DNA of 64,000 bases from an uncultured Gammaproteobacteria bacterium (GTDB taxonomy: Bacteria > Patescibacteriota > Microgenomatia > UBA8517), in assembly GCA_964583105.1 (NCBI GenBank), contig CAZOUV010000001.1:65617-129616 (forward strand), read 5' to 3'. Of the stretch, positions 21,770 through 56,676 are shown piece after piece (positions within the stretch are counted from its first letter, which is position 1; each line of letters starts with the position of its first letter). The notes beneath the pieces were generated by a model that worked only from the letters and a program-made list of their open reading frames with translations, was not told the DNA's origin and searched no databases. Both the position numbers and the translations under genes were made by a program.

Positions 21770-22369
21770 ATGAGAAAAATGATTTGGTTTACAACAGCTT
21801 CGGTTTTGTTTGTAATTTTTATTTTCCCTGCAATTATGGCTTTGACTATTAAGATGATTCCCGCGAAAGATCAACCTGGCTACGGTCCCAAAAGAATTTC
21901 TGTTTACGGAATAAAGGAACTTAGTCAGAAGTTTGTATCCTTAGAAAAAAATCTTACTGCAATAGGAACAACCGTTAAAAATCCAAACTTAAAAAATAAA
22001 AAAGAGGTGATCCTTGATTTGTATGATGTCAGCGGAAACTTGGTTAGAACCTCTATTCTAAACGGTTTCAATATAGGTGACGGAGATTTTGTTAAATTTG
22101 TTTTCGATGTCATACCCGATTCCGTGAACAAGGAATACAGACTCAGATTATCTTCTCCGACAGCAGGTGCCGACGAGATAGTAGAAGTTTTTTTAATGGA
22201 TAATCCAACGCCGGAAATTATTGAATATACTTTTGCTGAAGAAACATATCAGGGTGGAATTCCTTTGGTTACTTTTCATAAACCGGAAAATAAATGGGAA
22301 GTAATAAGAAGAATATATTCTAGTTGGCTTTCCAGACTTCTATTTCCCCGTTCTCAAAAAACAAAGTAA
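21770..22369 (+). CDS. Membrane-anchored hypothetical protein (N-terminal TM, extracytoplasmic beta-rich domain)
   Basis: ATG start; one N-terminal TM helix; no recognisable motif; its 3' end overlaps the convergent gene by ~50 nt. Confidence 0.4.
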   Translation: MRKMIWFTTASVLFVIFIFPAIMALTIKMIPAKDQPGYGPKRISVYGIKELSQKFVSLEKNLTAIGTTVKNPNLKNKKEVILDLYDVSGNLVRTSILNGFNIGDGDFVKFVFDVIPDSVNKEYRLRLSSPTAGADEIVEVFLMDNPTPEIIEYTFAEETYQGGIPLVTFHKPENKWEVIRRIYSSWLSRLLFPRSQKTK

Positions 22370-24152
22370 GACCAATAGTTTCGGGATTAACTTTCGGTCG
22401 TAGTATTTTTGGAAAATAGAGAATTTTCGAACGGGATTGCAGGAGAGTATCTTTTACATATTCTGGATCCGTACTTTCGAAAATAACTTTTTTAACTTCT
22501 TCCCTGGGTCTCCAGTTATAGTTCATAATATCTGCTTGTTCATAATCGTCAAAATATGTTCTTCTGGCGGATATGGCGGAGACATATGACGTATCAAACC
22601 AGTCCCAGATGTTGGGAGTTGCCCCTTCAAGATAAAGATATTGATTGTATGGTGGTGTAATAATTGTGGTTTCAACGGAAGTATTGGTTTTAATAAACTG
22701 CAGGGCTTCTATTTCGGATGATGATATTTTGGCAAAAGCAGGTCTTGAATAAAATTCAAGTAAAAGACCTATTTGCGTTGGGATCATTAAAATAATAATT
22801 ACAGGTATTAGGAATTTTACCTTAGCAGTAATTTTAGCTGTTGTAATTCCCGCTAAGATTCCGAAAAGAAGAACAAAATACTGCAGAAATTGACTGGAAT
22901 TTGAGGCAACTCCTTTTTGTAAAAACAAAAGAGGAAGAGTAAGTGAAATGACAATTATAGATTTAAAAATGATATGGGATTTTAGAAAATCCCAAAGCCC
23001 TATAAATCTCATACCTAAATTACCGAAGAAGAATATTAAAAAACCTATTCCTTCTAGCCAGATAACACGTTTCCAGTTATGTTCATAAATATATGTTTGA
23101 CGCCTTAATTCCCAATCAAGAAGGTTAAGTCGTGAGGGTTCAACAATCATGGTGCGTATATACCACCATGGTTGAAAGATTAAAAACGAAGCCGAACCTG
23201 AAGTGTTGGGTAAATAGATAATTGCTGCCAACATTCCGCTTGTTAGGGCCAGTAAAAGCAATTGAAATCTTTTTTCTTTAATAACCTGCCATACTCCGGC
23301 AATTCCCAAACCCGCAAAAACCACAACGGCGGCATAGACCTTAAAAGAAACAAGGCTTCCTGTTAGTATCGTGCAGATTAGAAAAAGAATTCTTTTTTGC
23401 AATTTAGCCTTTTGCTCTACCAGTAAAATTACAAAATAAATTATTGCTAGAACCAAAAAGTCGGAGATAATTTGAGGCGGGTTACCGCTTGCACTTTGGG
23501 GTTGGGTCGCCCAGAAAATACTTTCTCCTCCGATTGTTTTATTTTTAATATAGGTAACAATAAATCCGAAACTTCCCGCAAAATAAGTAAAAATCGTTGC
23601 CCAAAGGGAAGCGGAAAAATTTTTAGTAAGTTTTTTTGTGAGAAAAAATACTGAAGCTCCCAAGAAAAGGGAATAGAAAAAAGGAAAAATTCTAAAATAT
23701 AAATCAAAGTTTGAAATAGGCAGATATTTACTTACCATGGCGGGTAAAATGTCCGAGAAGAAATGATAATTAACCAGTTTTTCTCCCGCGAAGATCGGAT
23801 TTTCAAAAGGCCAGCCTTTTTTAATTTCTTCCATTAAGGCGATGTGCCAGGTTCCGTCATGACCGTGAGCACTCCAGAAAAGAATATCTCCGTTTTTAAA
23901 TATTCCGCTTGGGGAAATAACGGCAAGTTGACCCGCAATTCCCAGAGTAAATACTATTAAAACCAAAATTGTTTGAAGATTAAGTTTTATTTTTATTTGC
24001 CTGACAGTTTTAATCAGGGGTTTAATTGTTAACAACACTAAAATAATAAAAATTGGAATAATTAAGAAGGGAAGATTAAGAACTATCAAAAGATAGGAAA
24101 GAAGGGTTAAGGTTGTGAAAGCGGCAATTAACCCCATCAGTATTCTTTCCAT
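22320..24152 (-). CDS. Large polytopic membrane protein, 'GHDG-WHIAL' family (paralog of 3263-4978)
   Basis: Minus-strand ORF; TTG at 24156-24158, first ATG at 24150-24152; shared motifs with 3263-4978 (see above). Confidence 0.5.
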   Translation of the reverse strand: MERILMGLIAAFTTLTLLSYLLIVLNLPFLIIPIFIILVLLTIKPLIKTVRQIKIKLNLQTILVLIVFTLGIAGQLAVISPSGIFKNGDILFWSAHGHDGTWHIALMEEIKKGWPFENPIFAGEKLVNYHFFSDILPAMVSKYLPISNFDLYFRIFPFFYSLFLGASVFFLTKKLTKNFSASLWATIFTYFAGSFGFIVTYIKNKTIGGESIFWATQPQSASGNPPQIISDFLVLAIIYFVILLVEQKAKLQKRILFLICTILTGSLVSFKVYAAVVVFAGLGIAGVWQVIKEKRFQLLLLALTSGMLAAIIYLPNTSGSASFLIFQPWWYIRTMIVEPSRLNLLDWELRRQTYIYEHNWKRVIWLEGIGFLIFFFGNLGMRFIGLWDFLKSHIIFKSIIVISLTLPLLFLQKGVASNSSQFLQYFVLLFGILAGITTAKITAKVKFLIPVIIILMIPTQIGLLLEFYSRPAFAKISSSEIEALQFIKTNTSVETTIITPPYNQYLYLEGATPNIWDWFDTSYVSAISARRTYFDDYEQADIMNYNWRPREEVKKVIFESTDPEYVKDTLLQSRSKILYFPKILRPKVNPETIGLTLFFENGEIEVWKAN

Positions 24153-24176
24153 ACTCAAAGTATATATAATAATAGT
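24153..24176. promoter_or_regulatory. Divergent promoter region (TATATAAT) between 22320(-) and 24177(+)
   Basis: 24-nt AT-only gap 'actcaaagtatatataataatagt' between divergently oriented starts. Confidence 0.25.
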
Positions 24177-25793
24177 ATGACAAGGAAATATATCCTGATT
24201 CTTCTCGGGATTCTGCTTCTGGGATTTGTCCTTCGTGCCTATAAAGTTGCCCAGCTGCCCCTTTACGGGGATGAACTAACCATGGTTTATGATTCCTACT
24301 CCATTTTCAAAACAGGGAAAGATCAAACGGGAGATTTCCTTCCCCTTACTTTCAAAATGGGTGCGGGAAGGCCAGCAGGTTACGTTTATTTTTCCATTCC
24401 TTTTGTAGCAACTTTTGGTCCGGGTGCTTGGGGAGTAAGAGGATTATCGATTCTTTCAAGTCTGGGAATAATTTGGCTGATGTTTCTTCTTGGAAAAAAG
24501 CTTTTCAATGAAAAAATTGGCTTAATTGCATCTTTTCTGGTTGCGGTTTCTCCGTGGGATTTATCTTTAGCCAGAGGAGGGTTTGAGTCACATTTTGCAC
24601 TATTTTTGGCAATATCGGGATTATACCTACTTCTTAAAATAAAAGAATCCGGATGGAATTTTATTTTTGCCGTAATTCTTTGGGGAATAACCGTGAATAC
24701 CTATCCGACATATAAATTAATTCTTCCGATATTACTACCGGTAGTTATCTGGTACTTGGGGGGAGTTAAAAACATTCTGCCTAAAAATAAAAAACTTCTA
24801 CTCTTAGGAAGTATCTTCACGGTTGCAATTATCGGAGTAACTTTAAGTCAGACATTTACGGCAGGATCCGAAAACAGATTCTTAAATATTAATTTGTTTT
24901 CAAGCAGTAAAGGAACTGTTGAGCAGGATATCAACTTCAACCGTTCGGTCGATTCGGGTAGCAGTTTAACAAAAGAGATTTTTTACAACAAACCTCTTTC
25001 CTACCTTAAGCTTCTGGGGTCAAGCTATTTAAGCCATTTCTCGCTTGAGTATTTAATTGTGACTGGTGATAAAAACCCGAGACACAATATGACATCCTCG
25101 GGACTTATTTATGTTATTGAAATAATCACGGTTCTTTTAGGTTTCGGTTACTTTTATAATCTGAAGGAAAAGAGGAAGGATTTTATTTTAATTTTATTCT
25201 GGCTTTTGATTGCCCCTATCGGAGCAATTTTTATGCTTGATAATCATGGCTTAAGAACAAACTTCATGCTACCTCCATTAATTATTTTTTCTTCTATGGG
25301 AATATATCGTCTGATTAAAACCAGAAAACCAATTCTACTTATGGGAGTAATTCTCGTTTGGATGATTCAATTTGTGATAATTTTAGAGAGATTGTATTTT
25401 CTTTCTCCCAACAGGTTTGCCAGATTTTGGTCGAATATGGCAAAAACGGTAGCGACACAAAGCTTTAAAGAAAAAGACAACTATGATTTCGTTATTGTTT
25501 CTTCAAAAATTGACAATGTAGAATATGCCTACCAGGCTTATAACAGAATCGATCCGAATATTGTAATTAAGGAAAACAATCAGAAAACAACACTTAATAA
25601 TTATGACTTTAAAAAGTATGACAATGTTTATCTGGGTTCCGTTCCGGAAGGAAACCTTCTTTCGTTTTTGAATTCGTTGGAAGGAAGGGTAAAATATTAT
25701 GGAACGAGTGAAGATTCAAAAGTTTTGAGCGGGTATTTCGGATATTCTGATCTCGACGGAGTTTTTTCGGTGATATCTTATGAAAAAAGGTAA
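24177..25793 (+). CDS. PMT/ArnT-like GT-C glycosyltransferase (GT39/GT83-like), first of five tandem paralogs
   Basis: 'LPLYGDELTMVYDSYSIFKTGKDQTGDFLPL' DE motif in loop 1, 'SPWDLSLARGGFES', ~11 TM + C-terminal soluble domain. Confidence 0.65.
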   Translation: MTRKYILILLGILLLGFVLRAYKVAQLPLYGDELTMVYDSYSIFKTGKDQTGDFLPLTFKMGAGRPAGYVYFSIPFVATFGPGAWGVRGLSILSSLGIIWLMFLLGKKLFNEKIGLIASFLVAVSPWDLSLARGGFESHFALFLAISGLYLLLKIKESGWNFIFAVILWGITVNTYPTYKLILPILLPVVIWYLGGVKNILPKNKKLLLLGSIFTVAIIGVTLSQTFTAGSENRFLNINLFSSSKGTVEQDINFNRSVDSGSSLTKEIFYNKPLSYLKLLGSSYLSHFSLEYLIVTGDKNPRHNMTSSGLIYVIEIITVLLGFGYFYNLKEKRKDFILILFWLLIAPIGAIFMLDNHGLRTNFMLPPLIIFSSMGIYRLIKTRKPILLMGVILVWMIQFVIILERLYFLSPNRFARFWSNMAKTVATQSFKEKDNYDFVIVSSKIDNVEYAYQAYNRIDPNIVIKENNQKTTLNNYDFKKYDNVYLGSVPEGNLLSFLNSLEGRVKYYGTSEDSKVLSGYFGYSDLDGVFSVISYEKR

Positions 25794-26517
25794 AGTAGTT
25801 GTGGTAATGCCAGCATATAATGCCGCAAGAACGGTTAAGGATACGTATAAAGAAATTGATCCAAAGTATCGTAAACACATTATTCTGGTCGATGATCAAA
25901 GCAAGGATAATACCGTAGAAGTTGCCAAAAAATTAGGAATCGCTGTTTTTGCACACCCCAACAATTTGGGTTACGGAGGAAATCAAAAAACATGTTACTG
26001 GGAAGCTTTAAAACTGGATCCCGATGTTGTTGTTATGCTCCATCCGGATTATCAGTACGATGCGACAATGATGCCGTATCTTGTTCAGCCCATCTTGGAT
26101 GGAAAGTTTGATTTTATGTTCGGAAGCAGAATTGCAACAAAAAAGGGTGCTTTGGATGGGGGAATGCCCAAGCATAAGTACATAGTAAACAGGATTATCT
26201 GTTTTGTTCAAAATATTTTACTGGGTGTTAATTTTACGGAACATTTTTCGGGCTATCGTGCGTTTTCCAAAAAACTTCTTAAAACAATTCCTTTTCAAAG
26301 ATTTTCCAACGATTTTGGTTTTGATCAGGAAATGACCATTTCTGCTATAAGCCATAAAATGAGGATAGGTGAGGTACCAATTCCTACCCGTTATCACGAA
26401 AAACAATCCTCAATAAAATTCCTTAAAGGCTCGAAGTTTTTACTGGATGGTTTTTATACGATTTTCAAGTACCATCTTCACAGATTGGGGATTTTTAAAG
26501 ACAGAAGGTTTGCATGA
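25780..26517 (+). CDS. GT2, DPM1-like polyprenol-phosphate glycosyltransferase (soluble catalytic subunit)
   Basis: 'VVVMPAYNAARTV...ILVDDQSKDNT', 'HPDYQYD', 245 aa with no TM segment: dolichol/polyprenol-phosphate mannose synthase-like GT2. Confidence 0.6.
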   Translation: MKKGKVVVVMPAYNAARTVKDTYKEIDPKYRKHIILVDDQSKDNTVEVAKKLGIAVFAHPNNLGYGGNQKTCYWEALKLDPDVVVMLHPDYQYDATMMPYLVQPILDGKFDFMFGSRIATKKGALDGGMPKHKYIVNRIICFVQNILLGVNFTEHFSGYRAFSKKLLKTIPFQRFSNDFGFDQEMTISAISHKMRIGEVPIPTRYHEKQSSIKFLKGSKFLLDGFYTIFKYHLHRLGIFKDRRFA

Positions 26518-26822
26518 GAAAGTATATCTTATTGGTTTATTTTGTTCTTACCCTTTTTTTGCTGCTAAATATTTTAAATCCTAGAAAATATATTCTTTCG
26601 GGACTTGAAGCAGATAGAAATTTTACCAGACAGGAGTATTTGGGAGATGATTTGGGAAAAATATATAAAAACAGATTTGGGGTAGTCTTTTTTAATAAGG
26701 TTTACCCCGGGTTTATAAAGCTGGAATCAAATTTCTTCTCCGATTTGGGTAACATGTTTGTCTTTGTGCCTCTTTTCGGAATTTTATTATATGCAGGGTT
26801 AAAGAAGTTTAATGAGAAATAA
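26514..26822 (+). CDS. Small two-TM membrane protein (possible membrane anchor/partner for the adjacent DPM1-like GT2)
   Basis: 102 aa, hydrophobic helices at both termini; ATGA-coupled between a GT2 and a PMT-like gene. Confidence 0.35.
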   Translation: MRKYILLVYFVLTLFLLLNILNPRKYILSGLEADRNFTRQEYLGDDLGKIYKNRFGVVFFNKVYPGFIKLESNFFSDLGNMFVFVPLFGILLYAGLKKFNEK

Positions 26823-28404
26823 GTATTTTATATTATCTTTGATTGTGGTTTTGGCATTTGTCTTGAGATTTTATAAACTAGGAGAAGTTCCTTTGGGTTT
26901 TCATCAAGATGAAGTTTCTCAAGCCTACAATTCTTTTTCGGTTTTAAATACAGGGAGAGACCGTTATGGAGAATTATTGCCGATTTTATTTCGCTCTTTC
27001 GGTTCATATCAACCTCCCGTTTATACATACCTAACCCCTATTCCGATTTTTCTTTTTGGAAATACAATATTTGCTGCTAGGTTTACATCTGCCATATTTG
27101 GAGTTTTTATAGTTGCTGTTACTTATTTAATCGTTCTGACTTTGGTAAGGCATAAATATCAGCATAATTTGGCACTTTTATCGGCATTTACTATTGCAAT
27201 TTCACCTTGGTCCATACATTTCAGCAGAAGAGTAGTTGAAGGAAATTTGGGTCTTTTCTTTTTTCTTCTTTCCTTCTATTTATTTTTTCTGTCCTTTAAG
27301 AAAATTAAGTATTTTTTACCCGCGTGTCTTGTTTTAGGAATTTCAACCCACGCCTATTATTCGGAAAGGCTGATAAGTGTAATATTTCTTCCTGTTTTTC
27401 TTCTGTTTTTTAAATCATATTTTTTGAAATATAAAAAGATTGTGGTTGGCGGACTTATTGTTTTTTGTCTGGTTCTAATACCTCATTTAATAACCGTTGT
27501 GTCAGGAGCATTTTTTTCAAGATTTAATCAGGTGGGTTCATCCGGAAGCAGTTTTTTCTTGATTGAATTTATTAAACATTTTATAAGCTATTTTTCGCCC
27601 AAATATCTTTTTAGTGATGCGGGTAGCGGCTTGGCTCGCGTATCACCGAATCTGGGAGTCTTTTACGATTGGTTTTTCTTTCCTTTTTTAATCGGACTTT
27701 ATTATTTGGGCAAAATAATCGATGTTAAATATCTCAAGTTTCTGGGAATATTTACACTGATATCTCTCATACCGGTATCTTTGACGGGAGATGTATTTTA
27801 CCCTCTCAGGGCACTTGAATTTTTTTGGCTTCTTTCTTTTGTTATTTCGATTGGAATATTCAGAGCGGGAGAAATAATAAAACACAAAATAATTAAAAAA
27901 CTGATATTTTGTACTTTAATTGTGTATTCGCTGGGGAGTTTTTACGTTTCATATTTTGTTTTGTTTCAGCATGAAACTACAGAAAATGCCGGAAATACAT
28001 ATGTCAAGCTGTCTCAGGAATTAGAAAATTACAATGAATATAAAATTGTTTTGGATTCTACAAGAGATACCGCAGCGGGATTAAGAATGGCCTATTTTAG
28101 GAAATACGACCCCTTAAAACTTCAAGCATCCCTTAAAAATCAGCTTACGACGCCTTATTACAGCAGCAAGGTTGATCTTCAGGAACTTTATGTAGTTGAT
28201 AATATAGAGGCAAGATCTATTGATTGGAGAAAGGACAGGTGCAGTCCAAAGACAATTTTGGTCGGAGACAGTTTGGCGTTTTCGGATGAACAAATTAAGG
28301 AACACAATCTTAAAAAAGCTTTTGAAATAAAAGGTGTAAATAAAAATGTTGTACTTTACGGATACGAGACGAATCCCGATAAAAAGTGCATAATTAGTTT
28401 ATGA
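26812..28404 (+). CDS. PMT/ArnT-like GT-C glycosyltransferase, tandem paralog 2
   Basis: 'FHQDEVSQAYNSFSVLNTGRDRYGELLPILFRSFG...QPPVYTYL'. Confidence 0.65.
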   Translation: MRNKYFILSLIVVLAFVLRFYKLGEVPLGFHQDEVSQAYNSFSVLNTGRDRYGELLPILFRSFGSYQPPVYTYLTPIPIFLFGNTIFAARFTSAIFGVFIVAVTYLIVLTLVRHKYQHNLALLSAFTIAISPWSIHFSRRVVEGNLGLFFFLLSFYLFFLSFKKIKYFLPACLVLGISTHAYYSERLISVIFLPVFLLFFKSYFLKYKKIVVGGLIVFCLVLIPHLITVVSGAFFSRFNQVGSSGSSFFLIEFIKHFISYFSPKYLFSDAGSGLARVSPNLGVFYDWFFFPFLIGLYYLGKIIDVKYLKFLGIFTLISLIPVSLTGDVFYPLRALEFFWLLSFVISIGIFRAGEIIKHKIIKKLIFCTLIVYSLGSFYVSYFVLFQHETTENAGNTYVKLSQELENYNEYKIVLDSTRDTAAGLRMAYFRKYDPLKLQASLKNQLTTPYYSSKVDLQELYVVDNIEARSIDWRKDRCSPKTILVGDSLAFSDEQIKEHNLKKAFEIKGVNKNVVLYGYETNPDKKCIISL

Positions 28405-30050
28405 AGAAATATATATTACCGATTATTTTGACAGTAATTATCGTGTTGGCTTTTGGCCTGAGGTTTTATAAAGTTAAAACTATTCCACCTTCTCTAAATT
28501 GGGATGAAACCTCAATTGCCTATAATGCTTATTCAATACTAAAAACAGGCAGGGATGAATGGGGAAAGTCCTTTCCGCTTCATTTTAAATCTTACGGGGA
28601 ATATAAACTTCCGGCTCAAGTGTACGCTTCTATTCCTGGGATTTTTATTTTCGGTTTAAATGAGTTTGGAGTAAGGATTACTCCGGTAATTTACGGAACA
28701 TTAACGGTTTTACTTCTGTATTTTTTGGTTCAGGAAGCTTTCAGAAAAAAATCAGTATCGTTAATTTCGGCATTTTTATTAGCTGTTTCTCCATGGCACA
28801 TTCAATTAACCAGAGCATCTTTTGAATCATCATTTGCTCTTTTTTGGATTGTTGCGGGTATTTGGTTTTTGATTAAAGGTTTAAAGAAACCAAAATGGCT
28901 TATTTTTTCCATGATTCCTTTTGTAATCTCTGTGTATACATATAACTCCGCAAGGGTATTTACTCCGTTATTTTTATTTACCCTAGCAGTACTTTTCAGA
29001 AAGTATTTCTGGGAAAAGAGAAAATGGTTTTTAATTGCAGGAGCTTTATTTGCTGTTTTAATGCTTCCGCTTGTTCCTTTTGTTCTTTCCGGAGAAGCCT
29101 CGGCAAGATATAAGCTGGTAAGCATAACCGATGAAAAAGGACTGATTCCAAGAATAAATGAAAGAAGGGGGGCATCGACTCTTCCGTGGATATTTCCCAG
29201 AGCGGTTCATAATAAAGTAACCTATTTAAGTTTTTATTTTGCTAAAAACTATTTGGCCCACTTTACTCCCGATTTCCTTTTTGTAAATGGTGCAGGGCAC
29301 AGACAGCATCATGTGCAGGGGGTAGGGGAACTTTATTGGTTTCAGGCGCCATTTTTGCTCTTGGGAGTATTTTTCCTGATTAAAAAGAAAGACAGGAATT
29401 TAAAAATACTTATTCCTTGGCTTTTAATTGCATTTATTCCGGTTGCCATGACAAACGATAGTATTCCCAACGCATTAAGAACTTTAAATGCGGCTCCCGT
29501 ATATCAAATATTTTCTGCTCTGGGAATTTACTATTTGTGTACATTAATTAAAAACAAAAAAATATTTTATGTTCTAATGGGAATTTCAATATTGTTGTTT
29601 TTGGTTAATTTTTCTGTTTACCTTAAAAATCTATTTGTTGACTATTCCGTTAAGTATTCGCGTGACTGGCAGTATGGAAATAAAGAGGTTGTGGAATATA
29701 TAAAAAATAATCAGGATAAATATGATTTAATTACCTTTACAAGACATTATGGGGAGCCCCACATGTTTACTCTTTTTTACCTTAATTACGACCCCAATAA
29801 ATTTCAAAACAGTCCGAATATGGATAGATTTGAAACATACGATTGGGTAAGGGTTTTAAGATTTGATAAATTTTATTTTCCGGATCTTGGAGATGAAGGA
29901 ACCAAATATCAGGATGTGGTCAACGAAAATCCGGGAAAGAAGATACTATTTATTGGTAAACCTGGAGATTTCCCGAGCTACTTACCAAGGCTTTTGACTG
30001 TAAATTTCTTAAATGGCGATCTTGCTTTTGAAATCGTTGAAAAGAGATGA
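28401..30050 (+). CDS. PMT/ArnT-like GT-C glycosyltransferase, tandem paralog 3
   Basis: 'NWDETSIAYNAYSILKTGRDEWGKSFPLHFKSYGEYKLPAQVY', 'SPWHIQLTRASFES'. Confidence 0.65.
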   Translation: MKKYILPIILTVIIVLAFGLRFYKVKTIPPSLNWDETSIAYNAYSILKTGRDEWGKSFPLHFKSYGEYKLPAQVYASIPGIFIFGLNEFGVRITPVIYGTLTVLLLYFLVQEAFRKKSVSLISAFLLAVSPWHIQLTRASFESSFALFWIVAGIWFLIKGLKKPKWLIFSMIPFVISVYTYNSARVFTPLFLFTLAVLFRKYFWEKRKWFLIAGALFAVLMLPLVPFVLSGEASARYKLVSITDEKGLIPRINERRGASTLPWIFPRAVHNKVTYLSFYFAKNYLAHFTPDFLFVNGAGHRQHHVQGVGELYWFQAPFLLLGVFFLIKKKDRNLKILIPWLLIAFIPVAMTNDSIPNALRTLNAAPVYQIFSALGIYYLCTLIKNKKIFYVLMGISILLFLVNFSVYLKNLFVDYSVKYSRDWQYGNKEVVEYIKNNQDKYDLITFTRHYGEPHMFTLFYLNYDPNKFQNSPNMDRFETYDWVRVLRFDKFYFPDLGDEGTKYQDVVNENPGKKILFIGKPGDFPSYLPRLLTVNFLNGDLAFEIVEKR

Positions 30051-31435
30051 AAAGAATCGGTTTTTTTCTAAAAAACAACCTTTTACTTATACTTGTTCTT
30101 TCTGTTTTTTTAGTATCCCGTTTTTATAAAATAAGTCAGATTCCTTCTTCAGTTTATTGGGATGAGGCCTCAATCGGCTACAATGCATATTCGGTCTTAA
30201 AAACAGGAAAAGACGAGTGGGGAGAGTTTCTTCCGCTTCATTTTAGAGCATTTGGTGAATTTAAGCTTCCTGTTTATATCTATTCTGTAATGATCGCCGA
30301 ATCGGTGTTTGGATTAACACCACTGGCGGTAAGATTGCCGTCGGTTATTTACGGACTCTTTTCCATTCTGGGATTATATTTATTAACAAAAAAGATAACA
30401 GATAATAAAAAAATAGCTCTTATTTCTTCATTTTTGTTTAGTTTTATGCCGTGGTATTTTATTTTTTCCAGAACCGGTTATGAGGCAGTTGCCGGACTTA
30501 CGTTTTTTATTTATGCTATCTACTTTTTAATACTTTCGTTTGAAAAGAAAAGTTTCTTAATTATCTCTTCCTTTCTATTTATTTTGTCATTTTACAGCTA
30601 TAACAGTTTTAGGATTTTGGTTCCGTTATTCTTTCTTTCGGGACTGGTTGTTTATTATTTGAAAAACAAAAAACAAGGGACATTGGTTATTTTTGTTTCC
30701 TTGATAGTATTTTTATTAAGCTTATTTCCTGTTTATAAGTTATATCGGCAGGATTTTGGGTTAAACAGACTGCAAACGGTAGGAGTAACTCAAGGCCTGA
30801 TAAAAAATTATTTGACCCACTTGTCTTTTGATTTTTTGTTTGCCAGCGGCGATTCAAATCCGAGAAGTCAAATTCCGGGCAGCTCTCAACTTTTCTTAAT
30901 TGATTTACCTTTTGTTATATTGGGGTTAATCTATATCTTTAAGAAAAAGAACATTAAATATTATCTTATATTAATTACACTTCTAGCCTCTTTTATTCCT
31001 GCGGCAATTACCCGAGAATCTCCACACGCACTAAGAAGTATAACTGTGGCACCTTTATTTGCTTTAATTTCTTCATTCGGAATATATTTTTCTTTAGAGC
31101 TATTTAAGAAAAACAATAATAAAAATAAAAAATATTTATTAACAGGGATTATATCTTTATATCTGATTTATTTTGGTGTTTATTATTACAAATTTATAAC
31201 CAAATACAATTTGTTAACTTCAACAGACTGGCAGTATCCTTACAAAGAAATATTTACTACACAAAAAGAAGGCAAAGTTTCGGATAAATATGCTCAGCCT
31301 TATATTTTTGCTCTTTTTTACGGAAAAGTTGATCCAAAGGTATTTATCGAAACCAAGAAGTTGAATCCCGTTTCCGATTGGGGATTTTCGACAGTTAAGT
31401 CTTTTGATAAATTTGAATTTGTTAAATATGAGTAA
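30047..31435 (+). CDS. PMT/ArnT-like GT-C glycosyltransferase, tandem paralog 4
   Basis: 'YWDEASIGYNAYSVLKTGKDEWGEFLPLHFRAFGEFKLPVYIY'. Confidence 0.65.
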   Translation: MKRIGFFLKNNLLLILVLSVFLVSRFYKISQIPSSVYWDEASIGYNAYSVLKTGKDEWGEFLPLHFRAFGEFKLPVYIYSVMIAESVFGLTPLAVRLPSVIYGLFSILGLYLLTKKITDNKKIALISSFLFSFMPWYFIFSRTGYEAVAGLTFFIYAIYFLILSFEKKSFLIISSFLFILSFYSYNSFRILVPLFFLSGLVVYYLKNKKQGTLVIFVSLIVFLLSLFPVYKLYRQDFGLNRLQTVGVTQGLIKNYLTHLSFDFLFASGDSNPRSQIPGSSQLFLIDLPFVILGLIYIFKKKNIKYYLILITLLASFIPAAITRESPHALRSITVAPLFALISSFGIYFSLELFKKNNNKNKKYLLTGIISLYLIYFGVYYYKFITKYNLLTSTDWQYPYKEIFTTQKEGKVSDKYAQPYIFALFYGKVDPKVFIETKKLNPVSDWGFSTVKSFDKFEFVKYE

Positions 31436-32972
31436 AAAACTAACCTATCTTTTTTTAACGATTATTGTTTTAGCATCTGTTGTTACCAGATTCTATAAAC
31501 TGGGAAAAGTTCCGGTTGGTTTTACATGGGATGAAGCAGCAGTTGGTTATAATGCCTATACGATTCTTCATTGGGGGAAAGATGAATGGGGAAAAACTCT
31601 TCCTATTACTTTTAAATCTTTTGGGGATGACAAAAATCCGGCTCACGTATATTTGACTGCTCCTTTTGTTGGAATTTTTGGATTAAACGAGTGGGCAACA
31701 AGAGCTTCATCGGCTTTTTTCGGGGTACTACTTGTATTTATATCATTTTTCCTGGCAAAGACACTGTTTAAAAGTAGGACCATCGGTTTAATTACTGCGC
31801 TTTTTTTAAGCATATCGCCCTTTAATATTCAATTTTCCCGTTTCAATCATGAACTTAATTTTGCCGTTTTTTTCTTCATGGCAGGAATCTACCTCTTTTT
31901 TAAGGGATTAAGAAAGAAAAACTGGATGGTTATTCTATCTTTTGTTTTTTTGGGGTTGGACCTTCTTACATACCAAAGCGCTAAAGTAGTTACCCCGATA
32001 CTTGTAATTTTGTTAATAATCTTAAATATTAAAAAACTTTTAAAAGTAAAAAAGTATTTTATTGCAGGGTTGGTTATTTATTTATTATTTGTTAGTCTTC
32101 TTTTTATCAAACCTCAGTTATTGGGTGGGGCCAGATTAAAGCAAACTTCGATAGCGGAACCAAAAGTTGTATTAGCAAGGTATTTTGAGTACTTCAGCCC
32201 TAAATTCTTGTTTGTTTCGGGGGATGACAATCCACGTCACTCGATTCAGACGGTAGGTACTTTTTACTGGCTTGACTTACCTCTTCTTATTATCGGTTTA
32301 TTGGTAGTTTTGTGGAGACTTTTTGTTAAAAAAGATACAAAAATGCTTTTTTTACTGACATGGGTATTTTTGGCTCCCTTGCCCGGAGCGGCCAGTAGCA
32401 GCTTGCCCCATGTCTCCCGTGCTATGTTTATTACAGGAAGCTGGTTGATGATATCCGCTTTGGGAGCATATACGGTAATTTCAATACTGAAAAATAAATA
32501 CTACCGAATAATAATGGGTATTTTGTTGGTTGTGGTCTCGGGATATTTTCTGTCAAGGTATCTTAAAGACTATTTTGTCAAATACGATCAAAGGTATGCA
32601 ATAGAATGGATTTACGGAATGAAAGATATCGTTAAATTTGCGGATAAATTTGATTTTGACAGGGTTTATATGACGGAAAGCATGATGCAGCCTTATATAT
32701 TTTTCCTGTATTATCTGCAAACACCTCTGCCTGAATATTTAAGTTCCGTAAAATACAATGAAACCAAAAGTGCTCCTTCAAACGTGGTTTATTCCTACGG
32801 GAAATATCAGTTTATTTGGGATGAATACCAAAGTGTTCCCTACATGGGAGCTCTTTATGTTGTAAGACCCAGCGTCTATGACGGGCTTTTTTATAAAATG
32901 AGCTTTGATGTTGTCAAACTGATAAAATATCCTGACGGGACGGATGCATTCTATTTGGTTGTGGGGCACTAG
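31428..32972 (+). CDS. PMT/ArnT-like GT-C glycosyltransferase, tandem paralog 5
   Basis: ATG at 31428 (ATGAGTAA overlap with upstream stop; an upstream in-frame start at 31404 is also possible); 'TWDEAAVGYNAYTILHWGKDEWGKTLPITFKSFGDDKNPAHVY'. Confidence 0.65.
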   Translation: MSKKLTYLFLTIIVLASVVTRFYKLGKVPVGFTWDEAAVGYNAYTILHWGKDEWGKTLPITFKSFGDDKNPAHVYLTAPFVGIFGLNEWATRASSAFFGVLLVFISFFLAKTLFKSRTIGLITALFLSISPFNIQFSRFNHELNFAVFFFMAGIYLFFKGLRKKNWMVILSFVFLGLDLLTYQSAKVVTPILVILLIILNIKKLLKVKKYFIAGLVIYLLFVSLLFIKPQLLGGARLKQTSIAEPKVVLARYFEYFSPKFLFVSGDDNPRHSIQTVGTFYWLDLPLLIIGLLVVLWRLFVKKDTKMLFLLTWVFLAPLPGAASSSLPHVSRAMFITGSWLMISALGAYTVISILKNKYYRIIMGILLVVVSGYFLSRYLKDYFVKYDQRYAIEWIYGMKDIVKFADKFDFDRVYMTESMMQPYIFFLYYLQTPLPEYLSSVKYNETKSAPSNVVYSYGKYQFIWDEYQSVPYMGALYVVRPSVYDGLFYKMSFDVVKLIKYPDGTDAFYLVVGH

Positions 32973-32984
32973 AATGCACTAGGA

Positions 32985-33851
32985 ATGAAGATTATGAAAA
33001 AAAAGCTATCGGTGGTACTTGCCACAAGAAACGAAGAAAATAATATCGAAAGATGCATAAATTCGGTGAAGGAAATTGCCGATGAAATTGTTGTTGTTGA
33101 TGAGTATTCAACAGACAAAACCAGAGAAATCGCCCAAAAGTTGGGAGCAAAAGTATTTTTGGAAAAACACCATGATATTTTCCACATAACAAAGCAAATT
33201 GCCCTTGAGAAAGCAATGGGGGAATGGATTTTACAATTGGATGCTGATGAGGTTGTTACTACGGAACTTGCCGAAGAAATAAAGACGATCCTTAACGGAG
33301 AAAAATCAACTGTTGATACCAACAAACAAAGACTTTTTGAAAAACACCAAAAATTAATCGAAAATAGGGACGGAAAAGTAGGAAAAGAAGACGGTGAAAT
33401 TGCAGGTTATTTTATAGCCCGTAAAAACATGTTTTTGGGAAAACCTCTGATTCATGCGGGAGTATATCCCGATGGGGTAATAAGGTTGGTTATGAAAGGA
33501 AAGGCCGGATTTCCCCAAAAGTCTGTACATGAACAGATATCGGTTGACGGAAAAGTATCGTGGTTGAATTCCGATCTGGAACATTATGATTCACCAACCC
33601 TAAGAAGATACTTTGAACGGATGAACCGCTATACGGATCTGCATGCCGAAGAACTAAACGAAAGAAAAGCTCCCAAAAATATTTTATATTTTATTTATTA
33701 TTCATTTTTTAAATCTTTCTGTGTTTTTATTAATTTATTTATACTTCACAAAGGTTTTTTGGACGGAGTATATGGTTTTTTCTGGAGTTTATTTTCTTCT
33801 TGGCATTATCCGGTTGCGTATTTTAAATATTTAACCAAAAAGGTAGCATAA
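32985..33851 (+). CDS. Family 2 glycosyltransferase (paralog of 4975 and 6722)
   Basis: 'LSVVLATRNEENNIERCINSVKEIADEIVVVDEYSTDKT', 'LQLDADEVV'; A8 tract in codons 4-7. Confidence 0.65.
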   Translation: MKIMKKKLSVVLATRNEENNIERCINSVKEIADEIVVVDEYSTDKTREIAQKLGAKVFLEKHHDIFHITKQIALEKAMGEWILQLDADEVVTTELAEEIKTILNGEKSTVDTNKQRLFEKHQKLIENRDGKVGKEDGEIAGYFIARKNMFLGKPLIHAGVYPDGVIRLVMKGKAGFPQKSVHEQISVDGKVSWLNSDLEHYDSPTLRRYFERMNRYTDLHAEELNERKAPKNILYFIYYSFFKSFCVFINLFILHKGFLDGVYGFFWSLFSSWHYPVAYFKYLTKKVA

Positions 33852-33854: not shown

Positions 33855-34583
33855 ATGGAATTAAAAGGAAAAACTATACTGATAACGGGTGCAAGTAAGG
33901 GAATGGGCAATTCCATAACTAAGAAACTAGCTAAAGATGGAGTTAATCTTATACTTGTTGCCAGAAACGAGGATAATTTAAAAGATTTAGTAAAGAGTTT
34001 GGGTGAGGGAAGACATAAATATTATTCCTGCGACCTTGGGAAACAGGAAGAGGTTACAAAACTTGCAGAAAATATATCCAAAGATTACGAAAAGATAGAT
34101 GTTCTTATAAACGGAGCGGGTATTGGGATTTATAAGCCGATAGAGGAAGTAACTTATGAGGAGTGGAGAAATTCTTTTGCGGTAGGTCTTGATGCCGTTT
34201 ACTTTCTGACTCAAAAATTGCTTCCGCTTCTTGATAAGTCCGAAAAGCCTTTGGTAATTAATATTGGATCTGGCATGGGGGTAATTCCTGCTCCCGGAAG
34301 AAGTGTCTATTGTTCACTCAAATTTGCGCTAAGAGGAATGACACTAAGTCTTGCGGAAGAATTTAAAAGAACCAAGACACAATTTGTACTTCTTACCTTG
34401 GGAAGTGTTCTTACTGGTTTTGGTCCCAAAAGCCTGGAAGAGAAAAAAAGCGAAGGAAAAGCCTATTTGACTCCGGAATGGGTAGCGGATAGAGTTTCGG
34501 AGATAATCAAGGAAGACGGCAAAGAGGTGGAATACACTTTTTATCCTTCAGATTACAAAGAAGAGTGGGAAGCTGTAAAATAG
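33855..34583 (+). CDS. Short-chain dehydrogenase/reductase (SDR) family oxidoreductase
   Basis: 'ILITGASKGMGNS' Rossmann motif, 'NGAG', catalytic 'YCSLK' (YxxxK). Confidence 0.75.
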   Translation: MELKGKTILITGASKGMGNSITKKLAKDGVNLILVARNEDNLKDLVKSLGEGRHKYYSCDLGKQEEVTKLAENISKDYEKIDVLINGAGIGIYKPIEEVTYEEWRNSFAVGLDAVYFLTQKLLPLLDKSEKPLVINIGSGMGVIPAPGRSVYCSLKFALRGMTLSLAEEFKRTKTQFVLLTLGSVLTGFGPKSLEEKKSEGKAYLTPEWVADRVSEIIKEDGKEVEYTFYPSDYKEEWEAVK

Positions 34584-34587
34584 TAGT

Positions 34588-35580
34588 ATGCGAGTCGGAA
34601 TTGATCTTGGCGGAAGTCATGGTGGGCATGAAGAAAGAGGAATAGGAGTACATACAAACGAGCTATTTAATGCCCTTAAATCCTTAAAAAGTAAGGAAGT
34701 TGAAATATCAGAGTATAAACCCGGGAATAAATACGATCTTGTTCATTACACGGTATTTAAGCCTTTCAGTTTTTCGCTTCCTTTTAAAAAACCCGCCAAA
34801 AAAGTCGTTCTGACGATACATGATTTTATTCCTCTTATTTATCCCAAGCATTACCCTTCCGGAATTAAGGGAAAAATAATTTTTCTAATTCAGAAGTATC
34901 TTATTAAGAAAAATGTTGATGCGATAATTACCATTTCCGAGACATCCAAGAAAGATATCTGCAGGTTTTTGGGAGTTAGTCCTGAAAAAGTATATGTTAT
35001 CTACCTTGCACCAAAGAAGATATTTAAAAAAATAGAAGATGAGAAAGTAAAAAGGGAAATAATTGAAAAATACGATCTTCCTAAGAAATTTGTTCTTTAT
35101 GTCGGGGACGTAAATTACAACAAAAACATTCCCAATTTAATAAAAGCTGCAAAACTTGCCAAATTACCTTTGGTTATCTGTGGCAAGCAGGCAAAAGAAA
35201 TTGAAACAAAAGATCTTAATCATCCAGAACTTTTGCATTTGAAAAACATTGATTGGTCGGGTGTTTTAAGATTGGGTTTTGTTTCGGATGAAGACCTTGG
35301 TGTTATCTATAATTTGGCAACTGTTTATTGTCAGCCTTCTTTATATGAAGGTTTCGGACTTCCTGTTTTGGAGGCTTTATCTTGCGGCTGTCCCGTGGTT
35401 GCTTCCAAAACACAAGCATTGATTGAAATTGCCGAAGATTTAGGAGTTTTTGTTGACCCCAAAGATCCTATGGATATCGCCAAGGGCATAAATAATTTTG
35501 TAAGACCCTCAAAACCACCAAGAGAATATTCTTGGGAAAAAACTGCAAAAGAAACACGATCCCTCTATGAAAAAATCTGA
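34588..35580 (+). CDS. GT4 (GT-B) glycosyltransferase
   Basis: C-terminal 'EGFGLPVLEALSCGCPVVASK' motif; ~330 aa. Confidence 0.7.
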   Translation: MRVGIDLGGSHGGHEERGIGVHTNELFNALKSLKSKEVEISEYKPGNKYDLVHYTVFKPFSFSLPFKKPAKKVVLTIHDFIPLIYPKHYPSGIKGKIIFLIQKYLIKKNVDAIITISETSKKDICRFLGVSPEKVYVIYLAPKKIFKKIEDEKVKREIIEKYDLPKKFVLYVGDVNYNKNIPNLIKAAKLAKLPLVICGKQAKEIETKDLNHPELLHLKNIDWSGVLRLGFVSDEDLGVIYNLATVYCQPSLYEGFGLPVLEALSCGCPVVASKTQALIEIAEDLGVFVDPKDPMDIAKGINNFVRPSKPPREYSWEKTAKETRSLYEKI

Positions 35581-53064: not shown

Positions 53065-53453
53065 TTGACAAGGGTAACTCTTACGATTTCTTTCTCGTAT
53101 TTTTTCTGATCCCTTTCCTCGGTCGTAAATACGTAGAAGACTGTGTCTTCGAGAAACCTGGTTGCGTGAATTACATTCGGCCCAGTAAGAACCAAATCCC
53201 CAGCCTTCATTAATACGCTCTGTATTTTTGCCTTTGGCTTATCTGCCGGTTTTTCATAGTATCTTAATTTACCGCTTTCAAGAATAATCCAGTGATGATC
53301 CCTTTTGTGATAATGGTTTGCTCGGAGAGTACCTTTCTTGCTTGTAATTCTTAAAATCGACTTGACGCGGATTTTGTCGGGATCAAGAATTCTGGTAATT
53401 CCCCCCCTTTCGTCAATAAATTCTGGTTTGGTATGAACAATCTTTATTTTCAT
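53061..53453 (-). CDS. Cupin-fold sugar-nucleotide isomerase/epimerase (FdtA/WxcM-like or WbuC-like)
   Basis: 130 aa single cupin; 'ANHYHKRDHHW' His cluster, 'GPNVIHATRF'; lies between rfbB and the C-methyltransferase. Confidence 0.45.
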   Translation of the reverse strand: MKIKIVHTKPEFIDERGGITRILDPDKIRVKSILRITSKKGTLRANHYHKRDHHWIILESGKLRYYEKPADKPKAKIQSVLMKAGDLVLTGPNVIHATRFLEDTVFYVFTTEERDQKKYEKEIVRVTLVK

Positions 53454-53459
53454 AGAATA

Positions 53460-55179: not shown

Positions 55180-55208
55180 TTGAGCCGATTGTATGGATAA
55201 AGCCGGAG

Positions 55209-55916: not shown

Positions 55917-55938
55917 TCGTGATATTATATTTCAAGTC

Positions 55939-56667: not shown

Positions 56668-56676
56668 TAATCCTTC

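What the first reader, a model, noticed from the sequence alone, without database searches (positions are those of the whole stretch)
24177..32972. Five tandem PMT/ArnT-like GT-C paralogs headed by a DPM1-like synthase
24177, 26812, 28401, 30047 and 31428 encode ~460-550 aa proteins. All share a loop-1 'DE(x)S(I/Q)(A/G)YN(A/S)(Y/F)S(I/V)L(K/N)TG(K/R)D(E/R)(W/Y)G...LP(L/I)(H/T)F(K/R)(S/A)(F/Y)G' block and a later 'SPW...R.GFES' block, but have diverged C-terminal domains. A DPM1-like GT2 (25780) and a small 2-TM protein (26514) are inserted after the first copy. This is the signature of repeated duplication and diversification of protein/glycan O-glycosyltransferases that each take a polyprenol-P-sugar donor. 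Different copies may differ in sugar or acceptor specificity.
Basis: seen in the sequence. Interest (0 to 1): 0.75.

Follow-up and report, generated by a model that had tools for sequence, protein, structure and literature searches.

The report
Five ancient GT-C glycosyltransferase paralogs
A candidate-phyla-radiation bacterium carries a tightly packed, probably co-transcribed run of five anciently diverged membrane glycosyltransferases; one of them travels as a three-gene unit with its own lipid-sugar synthase and a previously unannotated small membrane protein.

Summary

Across 80 species-level loci the array is mostly syntenic and the duplications are ancient. Copies 1, 3, 4 and 5 each have their own orthologs at about 40-79% identity. 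The GT2 does not head the array. GT2 25780, small ORF 26514 and copy 2 form a facultative module in a variable slot. The small protein lies directly upstream of a copy-2-type GT-C in 22 of 24 places. It is fused to the GT2 in two genomes and to the GT-C in one, and matches no Pfam family.

Within orthogroups the C-terminal domain is conserved (52%); between paralogs it is near random (17%). This fits a shared donor chemistry with distinct acceptors. Sugar, acceptor and catalysis remain inferred. I rate it a new variant of a known kind, of moderate interest.

The parts
24177..25793 (+). Copy 1 (C1), a GT-C/PMT_2 paralog of 538 aa
   Evidence: PMT_2 36.9 bits. Orthologs at 44-47% identity lie next to the divergent 612 aa gene in Woesebacteria-type loci; the orthogroup has 40 members. 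The window copy is about 70-100 aa longer at the C-terminus than the orthologs in L001, L003 and L005 (441-465 aa).
25780..26517 (+). gt2D: a soluble GT2 that is a candidate polyprenyl-phosphate sugar synthase (245 aa, no TM helix)
   Evidence: PF00535 68 bits. NCBIfam AglJ 93, PpgS 69 and Dol-P-hexose transferase 51 bits, all below cutoff. PDB 5mlz DPMS E 4e-7. No hydrophobic segment. Orthologs at 62-80% identity occur in 24 of 73 loci. The LHPDYQYD motif is invariant in 28 of 29 orthologs.
26514..26822 (+). sm: a 102 aa, 2-TM membrane protein from an unannotated family that partners the GT2 and copy 2
   Evidence: TM segments at 4-22 and 74-92. HMM hits at 24 places, of which 22 lie directly upstream of a copy-2-type GT-C. 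It is fused to gt2D in L012 and L069, and to the GT-C in L037. No Pfam or NCBIfam match. Only 22 representatives at E<=1e-3 among 1.84e9 proteins.
26812..28404 (+). Copy 2 (C2), a GT-C/PMT_2 paralog of 530 aa; the transferase of the facultative module
   Evidence: PMT_2 40.9 and PMT 28.9 bits. Own orthologs at up to 78% identity. No ortholog in L001, L003 or L005. Co-occurs with sm (21 both, 1 sm only, 0 C2 only, 51 neither) and with gt2D (18/6/3/46).
28401..30050 (+). Copy 3 (C3), a GT-C/PMT_2 paralog of 549 aa; the most conserved core member
30047..31435 (+). Copy 4 (C4), a GT-C/PMT_2 paralog of 462 aa; core member
   Evidence: PMT_2 36.2 bits. Orthologs at 53-60% identity in L001, L003 and L005. 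Present in 66 of 81 loci, directly after C3 in most of them.
31428..32972 (+). Copy 5 (C5), a GT-C/PMT_2 paralog of 514 aa; core member
   Evidence: PMT_2 54.5 and PMT 39.1 bits. Orthologs at 42-46% identity. Present in 70 of 81 loci.
32985..33851 (+). gt2E: a conserved GT2 that follows the array
   Evidence: PF00535 69.8 bits. Ortholog present in 75 of 81 loci, directly after C5 in most of them.
33855..36748 (+). Conserved downstream block: SDR (33855-34583), GT4 (34588-35580) and a PIG-V-like GT-C (35567-36748)
   Evidence: Pfam adh_short, Glycos_transf_1 and Mannosyl_trans2 at 39.8 bits. Same order in most related loci.
22320..24158 (-). Divergently transcribed 612 aa multi-TM protein; a conserved upstream neighbour of unknown function
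   Evidence: Orthologs at 60-76% identity in the same position and orientation in Woesebacteria-type loci. No Pfam or NCBIfam hit. hhalign against the GT-C profile gives probability 0.3%.

Best explanation
This is a tightly packed, probably co-transcribed segment of a large cell-surface glycan island in a Microgenomatia (Woesebacteria-like) CPR bacterium. It encodes five non-redundant, anciently diverged GT-C-fold membrane glycosyltransferases.

Shown:
- All five have the PMT_2 signature and an invariant Asp-Glu at the start of the first extracytoplasmic loop.
- Copy 3 models confidently as an 11-TM GT-C enzyme with an extracytoplasmic C-terminal alpha/beta domain.
- Copies 3-4-5 form a core trio that stays in this order, followed by GT2/SDR/GT4/PIG-V-like genes, in most related loci. 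The order erodes in the most divergent (Shapirobacteria-type) loci.
- Copy 1 is conserved in the Woesebacteria branch.
- GT2 25780, small membrane protein 26514 and copy 2 are gained and lost together in a variable slot.
- The small protein is found fused to either partner.

Inferred:
[quoted passage not shown] The shared loop-1/TM core would handle donor chemistry, and the paralog-specific C-terminal domain and EL4 loop would select a different acceptor position.
- The trio would perform successive, obligatory steps on one conserved product. That product is most likely a lipid- or wall-linked glycan, less likely a set of surface proteins.
- The GT2 would make the dedicated lipid-sugar donor for copy 2. 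The small protein would be its membrane subunit, which anchors the soluble synthase and hands over, and possibly flips, the donor to copy 2. This resembles a three-component (GtrB/GtrA/GtrC-like) side-branch module.

For: Ancient, non-redundant copies: paralogs are 25-34% identical while orthologs are 42-79% identical. Orthogroups have 86, 73, 73, 40 and 26 members. C4, C5 and gt2E are present in 66, 70 and 75 of 81 loci.

Specialisation: the C-terminal domain is 0.52 identical within orthogroups against 0.17 between paralogs.

Module: searches show the same trio in L007, L008 and L009. gt2D versus C2 at >=40% identity gives 17/7/0/49, p=2e-11. sm versus C2-type gives 21/1/0/51, p=2e-17, and gt2D versus C2-type gives 18/6/3/46, p=2e-9. 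The sm gene lies between -51 and +7 nt of the GT-C start in 22 of 24 places. GT2-sm fusions occur in L012 and L069, and an sm-GT-C fusion in L037 preserves TM parity.

Synthase identity: AglJ, PpgS, Dol-P-hexose transferase and DPMS are the best matches, and there is no TM helix.

Island context favouring a glycan product: two Wzx-type flippases, GT87-like and PIG-V-like GT-Cs, an MBOAT+AlgX-like O-acetylation pair, and sugar-modifying enzymes.

Operon-like packing: start/stop overlaps of 4-14 nt.
Against: - No biochemical data exist for any member, so donor lipid, sugar, acceptor and catalysis are all inferred.
- Every specific NCBIfam equivalog is missed by far (Pmt 24 against 800, ArnT 21 against 567, AglJ 93 against 325).
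- The profile of these proteins barely detects any solved GT-C by sequence (ArnT E 0.023).
- Fold searches do not discriminate between lipid-P-sugar users (ALG12, PMT, ArnT) and lipid-PP-oligosaccharide users (STT3/AglB).
- gt2D is far more abundant than sm or C2. It occurs without a C2-type gene in 6 loci, one of which (L072) still has sm and an sm-adjacent GT-C from a separate cluster. sm/C2 occur without a detectable gt2D in 3 loci. The coupling is therefore strong but not obligate within +-10 kb.
- Co-occurrence p-values are not corrected for phylogeny.
- Fusions are rare: 3 loci, all MAGs, and one could be an assembly or deletion artefact.
- No initiating phosphoglycosyltransferase, polymerase or ligase was recognised in the window, so the 'one product' pathway is incomplete.
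- sm is not related to GtrA, MATE, SMR, DPM3 or any other Pfam family.
Confidence: 0.6

Rival explanations
1. Protein O-glycosylation machinery. The five paralogs are PMT-like (GT39-type) protein O-glycosyltransferases, each recognising different surface proteins or sites, or acting as hetero-oligomers like yeast Pmt1-Pmt2. They would decorate pili, S-layer or Ser/Thr-rich regions of envelope proteins.
Against: The NCBIfam protein O-mannosyltransferase equivalog scores 24 bits against a cutoff of 800, and only for copy 4. No MIR or PMT_4TMC domains were reported by Pfam. Fold scores are equal or higher for ALG12, AglB and ArnT. The neighbours are typical of glycan or lipoglycan assembly: GT87-like, PIG-V-like, Wzx-type flippases and an MBOAT/AlgX-like pair. 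No candidate substrate protein is encoded in the conserved block.
Confidence: 0.25
2. Oligosaccharyltransferase-like enzymes. Copies 3-5 transfer a preassembled glycan en bloc from a polyprenyl-diphosphate carrier, like STT3/AglB/PglB, using the 'DWQYG/EWIYG' motif after the last TM helix as a WWDYG analogue.
Confidence: 0.05
3. Some copies are non-catalytic: degenerate paralogs that act as scaffolds or as flippase-associated factors (Agl23-like) rather than as transferases.
For: Copies 2 and 5 have their best NCBIfam hit to 'flippase activity-associated protein Agl23' (38-48 bits). Paralog arrays often contain pseudo-enzymes (general knowledge).
Against: Those hits are far below the cutoff of 126 bits. 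All five orthogroups keep D35, E36, D52, R138, E142, R236 and R360 at 95% or more. Each orthogroup is under clear purifying selection along its whole length, at 0.38-0.68 identity per region.
Confidence: 0.07
4. Artefact: the repeats are assembly duplicates, or recent redundant tandem duplications with no functional differentiation.
For: None found.
Against: DNA similarity is limited to stretches of at most 149 nt at 67-80% identity. Protein identity is 25-34%. The same ordered copies occur in dozens of independently assembled genomes.
Confidence: 0.01

Closest known systems
Three-component extracytoplasmic glycosylation systems (GtrB/GtrA/Gtr-type; CsbB/GtcA/YfhO; Citrobacter ORF15/ORF14/ORF12, PMC11127046; PMC7389260)
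   Same: A cytoplasmic-face GT2 related to polyprenyl-phosphate sugar synthases, a small membrane protein and a GT-C enzyme are encoded side by side and are gained and lost as a unit. They appear to add a strain-variable decoration on top of a conserved pathway.
   Different: The middle component is not GtrA, SMR or MATE. It belongs to an unannotated family. It is found fused to the synthase or to the GT-C, which suggests a structural adaptor or synthase subunit rather than, or as well as, a free-standing flippase. The GT2 lacks the C-terminal TM helices of GtrB/ArnC and has HPD in place of DXD. The module is nested inside an array of four further GT-C paralogs.
Split dolichol/polyprenol-phosphate sugar synthases: human DPM1 with DPM3/DPM2, and mycobacterial PpgS with Rv3632 and the GT-C Rv3779 (own knowledge; NCBIfam NF058614 PpgS)
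   Same: A catalytic GT2 without TM helices is encoded next to a small membrane protein and a GT-C that would consume the product. PpgS is the second-best NCBIfam hit (69 bits). Pyrococcus DPMS, which carries its TM helices in cis, is the only PDB sequence hit. This parallels the fused forms in L012 and L069.
   Different: There is no detectable homology of sm to DPM3, DPM2 or GtrA-like Rv3632. All scores are below the equivalog cutoffs. The sugar is unknown.
PMT_2/GT39/GT83 GT-C enzymes (protein O-mannosyltransferases; ArnT)
   Same: Pfam PMT_2 and PMT domains, the loop-1 Asp-Glu, the GT-C fold and a C-terminal extracytoplasmic domain as in ArnT. ArnT is the only solved protein reached by the family profile (E 0.023).
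   Different: Structure-based identity to any solved member is 10-15%. The Pmt and ArnT equivalog models are missed by more than 500 bits. No MIR domain is present. There are five to eight paralogs in one operon rather than a single gene.
Mycobacterial/corynebacterial lipoglycan and arabinogalactan GT-C sets (PimE, MptA/B/C, EmbA-C, AftA-D)
   Different: There is no sequence-level orthology. The mycobacterial genes are dispersed rather than forming one co-linear array. The organism is a reduced-genome CPR bacterium whose envelope glycans are unknown.

Membership tests
GT-C fold glycosyltransferase superfamily | Multi-pass TM core with the conserved GT-C helical architecture | tested here: met
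GT-C fold glycosyltransferase superfamily | Conserved acidic residue(s) in the first extracytoplasmic loop | tested here: met
   D35-E36 (copy 3 numbering) are invariant in the five window copies and at least 95% conserved across about 100 orthologs of all five groups. They sit at the start of the EL1 helix after TM1. Their catalytic role is inferred.
GT-C fold glycosyltransferase superfamily | Uses a lipid-phosphate-linked sugar donor | not testable with these tools
   Support is indirect only: adjacency and co-inheritance with a DPMS/AglJ/PpgS-like GT2.
Pfam PMT_2 (PF13231) / PMT (PF02366); CAZy GT39/GT83 neighbourhood | HMM score above the curated gathering threshold | tested here: met
   PMT_2 scores 36.2-54.5 bits against 26.1 for all five copies. 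PMT scores 28.9-39.1 against 22.7 for copies 2, 3 and 5 only.
Protein O-mannosyltransferase (NCBIfam NF058602 equivalog; GT39) | Equivalog-level sequence match | tested here: not met
   The best score is 24.1 bits (copy 4) against a cutoff of 800.
Protein O-mannosyltransferase (eukaryotic PMT type) | MIR domain in the large luminal loop, or the PMT_4TMC C-terminal module | tested here: not met
   No such Pfam hits at E<=0.01. The EL4 loop is about 80 residues and mostly helical.
ArnT (lipid A Ara4N transferase, NF009784; GT83) | Equivalog-level sequence match | tested here: not met
   20.6 bits against a cutoff of 567 (copy 3). The profile against ArnT 5ezm gives E 0.023 over TM2-TM7 only.
STT3/AglB/PglB oligosaccharyltransferase (GT66) | WWDYG motif within an OST-type C-terminal domain; 13 TM helices | tested here: not met
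Three-component glycosylation system | Polyprenyl-phosphate glycosyltransferase (GtrB/ArnC/DPM1-class GT2) | tested here: inconclusive
   The best matches are AglJ, PpgS, Dol-P-hexose transferase and DPMS 5mlz, but all are below the equivalog cutoffs. The acceptor lipid was not tested.
Three-component glycosylation system | Dedicated flippase of the GtrA, SMR or MATE type | tested here: not met
   The short and long forms of sm have no Pfam or NCBIfam hit. Whether sm flips the donor cannot be tested here.
Three-component glycosylation system | GT-C transferase genetically linked to the synthase | tested here: met
   Copy 2 directly follows gt2D and sm. All 17 loci with a C2 ortholog at 40% identity or more also have gt2D. 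sm and C2-type genes co-occur in 21 of 22 loci. Fusions link all three.
DPM1/DPM3-type split synthase | Catalytic subunit without TM helices, plus a small membrane subunit homologous to DPM3/DPM2 | tested here: inconclusive
   A TM-less GT2 with an adjacent small membrane protein, and GT2-sm fusions: met. Homology of sm to DPM3, DPM2 or GtrA: not detected.

The most novel reading that the evidence does not exclude
The small protein (26514-26822) founds a new family of membrane adaptors that physically couples a soluble polyprenyl-phosphate sugar synthase to its cognate GT-C transferase. It would form a channelled synthase-adaptor-transferase complex and may itself carry the lipid-sugar across the membrane. 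That would be a new answer to the long-unsolved question of how Pren-P-sugars are flipped and delivered. The surrounding GT-C array would be the assembly line for a so far unknown surface lipoglycan of Microgenomatia.
Probability: 0.25. Interest if true: 0.75.

Novelty: new variant of a known kind. Interest (0 to 1): 0.5.

Why it matters
CPR/Patescibacteria are ultra-small bacteria, the cultivated ones episymbiotic (PMC11623550 abstract). Their surface chemistry is essentially unknown, and the surface is where they meet their hosts.

This locus shows that Microgenomatia, despite genomes that appear to be about 1 Mb or less (contigs of 0.75-1.08 Mb, two of them labelled chromosomes), keep an ancient, ordered set of at least three to five distinct GT-C enzymes. 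These sit inside a glycan island of about 64 kb, which argues for a complex and conserved extracytoplasmic glycan.

The facultative GT2-sm-GT-C module gives a clean, testable example of how variable decorations are bolted onto a conserved pathway. The small protein, fused to either partner in different genomes, is a concrete candidate for the missing link between lipid-sugar synthesis on the inside and use on the outside. That role is genetically assigned but biochemically unproven even for GtrA, MATE and SMR candidates (PMC11127046).

The paralog set is also a natural experiment in GT-C acceptor specificity: the catalytic loop is conserved while the C-terminal domain is orthogroup-specific.

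Tried and rejected
1. Small ORF as a relic of a sixth GT-C copy (its N-terminus 'MRKYILL' and 'FFSDLG' looked similar). The GT-C profile scores the sm proteins at 12.7 bits or less, with equal compositional bias. sm has its own conserved loop motif and its own homologs. Rejected.

3. Divergent 612 aa neighbour, the 515 aa ORF at 20172 and the PTPS_related ORF at 14381 as GT-C relatives. hhalign probabilities were 0.3%, 6.5% and 24.6%. Inconclusive and not claimed.

4. Sequence search of copy 3 against PDB gave no hit. The family profile gave only ArnT at E 0.023. The fused GT2-sm protein of L012 gave no informative PDB hit for its membrane half.

Taxonomic placement therefore rests on the names of homologous records.

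6. The promoter/terminator scan found fewer promoter-like sites than in shuffles (36 against 48.5), and the terminator-like sites lie inside genes. It says nothing about operon boundaries. Co-transcription is inferred from overlapping start/stop codons.

7. Literature searches for GT39 or GT-C expansions in CPR/Microgenomates found no paper describing this array.

8. tRNA scan of the window found none.

Full report
**1. Observation**

The five ORFs exist as described: 24177-25793 (538 aa), 26812-28404 (530), 28401-30050 (549), 30047-31435 (462) and 31428-32972 (514; a TTG at 31404 is an alternative start). All are on the + strand. Start and stop codons overlap by 4-14 nt with each other and with the two inserted genes.

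All five pass the Pfam PMT_2 gathering score. Copies 2, 3 and 5 also pass PMT. Pairwise protein identity is 25-34%, with E 1e-21 to 1e-86. At the DNA level only 36-149 nt stretches at 67-80% identity are shared.

The loop-1 block is real but looser than written. Copy 4 fits exactly, copies 2 and 3 miss by one residue each, and copies 5 and 1 deviate more. Across about 100 orthologs of all five groups, 17 positions are at least 95% conserved: R21, P29, D35, E36, D52, G55, P59, F62, Y75, G85, R138, E142, Y181, R236, L293, G322 and R360 in copy-3 numbering.

The GT2 (25780-26517) and the 102 aa ORF (26514-26822) lie after copy 1. The GT2 does not head the array.

**2. Context**

The whole 64 kb window has about 35% GC and its genes run almost entirely on one strand. 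It is a glycan island containing:
- at least eight PMT_2 proteins above threshold, plus several weaker ones;
- three tandem PTPS_related membrane proteins;
- two GT87-like proteins and a PIG-V-like protein;
- two Wzx-type flippases;
- about fifteen GT2/GT4 enzymes and several methyltransferases;
- a 4,6-dehydratase, a DegT aminotransferase and a C-methyltransferase;
- an MBOAT/AlgX-like pair.

No tRNA genes are present.

Homologs are named Patescibacteria, Microgenomates or Woesebacteria. A scan of species-representative genomes found relatives in 449 stretches, from Woese-, Davies- and Shapirobacteria.

**3. The duplications are ancient and the array is syntenic**

Copy 3 has orthologs at 66-84% identity among the 119 non-self hits listed, far above its 25-34% identity to its neighbours. 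Gene order in three relatives is: a divergent ~605-612 aa membrane gene, then the PMT_2 array, then GT2, SDR and GT4.

blastp assigns positional orthologs in those relatives as follows:
- copy 1: 44-45% identity
- copy 3: 68-79%
- copy 4: 53-60%
- copy 5: 42-46%
- copy 2: none

I called ORFs in 80 further loci and assigned each to its best window protein. C3-C4-C5-gt2E-(SDR)-GT4-PIG-V-like is a conserved core. C4 is present in 66 of 81 loci, C5 in 70 and gt2E in 75. The most divergent loci (Shapirobacteria-type, and L061 and L077) lack C4 and/or C5. The region upstream of C3 is variable and holds further divergent paralogs.

Single-linkage clustering gives 16 orthogroups at 40% identity. At 45% identity the five window copies fall into separate groups of 86, 73, 73, 40 and 26 members. 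Loci hold 2-8 array-type GT-Cs, with a median of 5.

**4. Fold and family**

An AlphaFold model of copy 3, built from a 45-sequence alignment, has pLDDT 87.8 and pTM 0.89. It shows 11 TM helices, an EL1 with a helix at 34-49 that starts at D35-E36, an EL4 loop of about 80 residues, and a C-terminal alpha/beta domain at residues 420-549.

The proteins are therefore members of the GT-C fold and of Pfam PMT_2. They are not demonstrable members of GT39 Pmt, GT83 ArnT or GT66 OST.

**5. Specialisation**

Mean identity within orthogroups against between paralogs, by region:

| Region | Within | Between |
|---|---|---|
| TM1+EL1 | 0.64 | 0.40 |
| TM2-7 | 0.50 | 0.27 |
| EL4 | 0.53 | 0.25 |
| TM8-11 | 0.42 | 0.22 |
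| C-terminal domain | 0.52 | 0.17 |

The C-terminal domain is as constrained as the rest within each lineage, yet essentially unrelated between lineages (ratio 3.0, against 1.6 for EL1).

**6. The GT2, the small protein and copy 2 form a module**

*Copy 2 and its neighbours.* Copy 2 has its own orthologs at up to 78% identity. In three genomes the trio GT2 (243-248 aa), small ORF and copy 2 occupies the same slot between copy 1 and copy 3. The small ORF is 78-101 aa in L007 and L008. It was not called in L009 by the source annotation but was detected there by my ORF analysis. In L001, L003 and L005 all three genes are missing.

*Co-occurrence.* I used the 73 loci with at least 8 kb upstream. 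The gt2D ortholog is present in 24 and a C2 ortholog (40% identity or more) in 17. All 17 also have gt2D, and none has C2 without it (Fisher p = 2e-11).

*An HMM of the small protein* finds it at 24 places.
- In 22 of them it lies between -51 and +7 nt of the start of a copy-2-type GT-C.
- The exceptions are L009, where a run of N hides the junction, and L037, where it is fused in frame to the GT-C. That fusion loses one TM helix from each partner, so topology parity is kept.
- In L012 and L069 it is fused to the C-terminus of the GT2, giving 470-471 aa proteins.
- In other genomes it is a 166-250 aa multi-TM protein. The 102 aa, 2-TM form in the window is a minimal version.

*Refined contingency tables* (both / first only / second only / neither):
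- sm against C2-type: 21/1/0/51, p = 2e-17
- gt2D against C2-type: 18/6/3/46, p = 2e-9

None of these p-values is corrected for phylogeny.

*What sm is.* sm has no Pfam or NCBIfam match. It occurs once in the window. It is rare: 22 cluster representatives at E<=1e-3 among 1.84e9 proteins in a single-sequence search.

*What gt2D is.* gt2D has no TM helix. Its best matches are AglJ, PpgS, the haloarchaeal Dol-P-hexose transferase and Pyrococcus DPMS. It has an invariant LHPDYQYD motif where DPMS has DAD-x-Q. It is abundant and nearly always stand-alone.

**7. Mechanism**

*Shown:* GT-C fold, a conserved EL1 acidic pair, ancient non-redundant orthogroups, a largely conserved order, and a co-inherited three-gene module with fusions in both directions.

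*Inferred:*
- Each GT-C transfers a sugar from a polyprenyl-phosphate donor outside the membrane.
- The core trio performs successive steps on one conserved product.
- gt2D makes the donor for copy 2.
- sm anchors the soluble synthase and passes, and perhaps flips, the donor to copy 2. This would be analogous to GtrB/GtrA/GtrC (PMC11127046, PMC7389260), to DPM1/DPM3, or to PpgS/Rv3632/Rv3779 (own knowledge).

The donors for copies 3-5 must come from elsewhere, because these copies persist without gt2D. Candidates in the window are 37980 (PgfS/PpgS-like, next to a Wzx/MATE-like flippase and a weak PMT_2 gene), 48112 (full-length ArnC/GtrB-like, 166 bits) and 49059 (AglJ-like).

I favour a glycan or lipoglycan acceptor (about 0.5) over proteins (about 0.25-0.3). 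The reason is the company the array keeps: GT87-like, PIG-V-like, Wzx-type and MBOAT/AlgX-like genes. This is contextual evidence only.

**8. Novelty and score**

Tandem PMT_2 genes annotated 'GT39 family' are already in the databases. The GT-C fold and lipid-sugar logic are textbook. I found no paper describing this array.

What is new is the resolved anatomy:
- an ancient core trio plus a branch-specific copy;
- a facultative synthase-adaptor-transferase module;
- a middle component from an unannotated family, fused alternately to either partner.

I rate it a new variant of a known kind, with interest 0.5. The main value lies in the sm family as a testable candidate for donor hand-off or flipping, and in the window it gives onto CPR surface glycans.

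Noticed in passing
window 12686-14377, 14381-16060, 16072-17727: A second tandem array: three PTPS_related (PF10131) multi-TM paralogs at 29-39% identity, each with its own orthologs in relatives. hhalign to the GT-C profile is weak (probability 25%).
   Followed up: partly
window 17724-18989 and 18986-20188: A tandem pair of GT87/MptA_B-like membrane proteins (31% identity). They are conserved upstream of the array in Woesebacteria-type loci.
   Followed up: partly
window 22320-24158 (-) and 3263-4978 (+): Two paralogous (32% identity) membrane proteins of 571-612 aa with no Pfam or NCBIfam hit. The first is a conserved, divergently transcribed neighbour of the array at 60-76% identity in relatives. 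No similarity to the GT-C profile was detected.
   Followed up: partly
window 36736-40179: A second three-component-like set: a Wzx/MATE-like flippase (36736), a 243 aa GT2 whose best hits are PgfS and PpgS (37980), and a weak PMT_2 membrane protein (38698). The flippase and GT2 are conserved downstream of the array in most related loci. They are a candidate donor supply for the core copies.
   Followed up: partly
window 44676-49020: Two further PMT_2 proteins (44676, 684 aa; 46727, 468 aa, just under threshold) lie next to a full-length ArnC/GtrB-like GT2 on the opposite strand (48112-49020; 166 bits over 8-296 of 316).
   Followed up: no
window 61070-63607: An MBOAT (61070-62452) followed by an AlgX-like SGNH protein (62453-63607), the pairing used for O-acetylation of extracytoplasmic polysaccharides. 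It lies directly after a 725 aa PMT/PMT_2 protein (58891).
   Followed up: no
window 25780-26517, residues around 88-96: The GT2 has LHPDYQYD where Pyrococcus DPMS has MDADLQH. His replaces the first Asp of the DXD motif, while the second Asp and the Gln are kept. The motif is invariant in 28 of 29 orthologs. The weaker GT2 paralogs paired with DUF2304 in relatives keep D-x-D-x-Q.
   Followed up: partly
window 51829-58894: A modified-sugar toolkit: a sugar C-methyltransferase (51829-53064, -), a 4,6-dehydratase (53460-54488, -), two short GT2s (54481, 55209, -), two SAM methyltransferases (55834, 56677) and a DegT/EryC1 aminotransferase (57683).
   Followed up: no
loci L011-L014, L018, L020, L024, L026, L028 and others: Many MAG records carrying this Microgenomatia-type locus are titled 'uncultured Gammaproteobacteria bacterium'. 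The label conflicts with the gene content and with the named Woese- and Daviesbacteria relatives, and looks like a deposit-level taxonomy error.
   Followed up: no
L003/L004 5764-6771, 11632-12291 and 17258-19316; L001 20315-21343; L007 15217-16824: Relatives carry unrelated insertions in and around the array: Peptidase_S51 between C3 and C4, RhuM, HicA/HicB, Fic and a PIF1-type helicase. The locus appears to tolerate or attract insertions.
   Followed up: no
L001 19252-20269; L005 20890-21665: Relatives that lack the gt2D module have a 217-223 aa GT2 (26-28% identical to gt2D) followed by a DUF2304 small membrane protein downstream of the array. This is another pairing of a short GT2 with a small membrane protein.
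   Followed up: no
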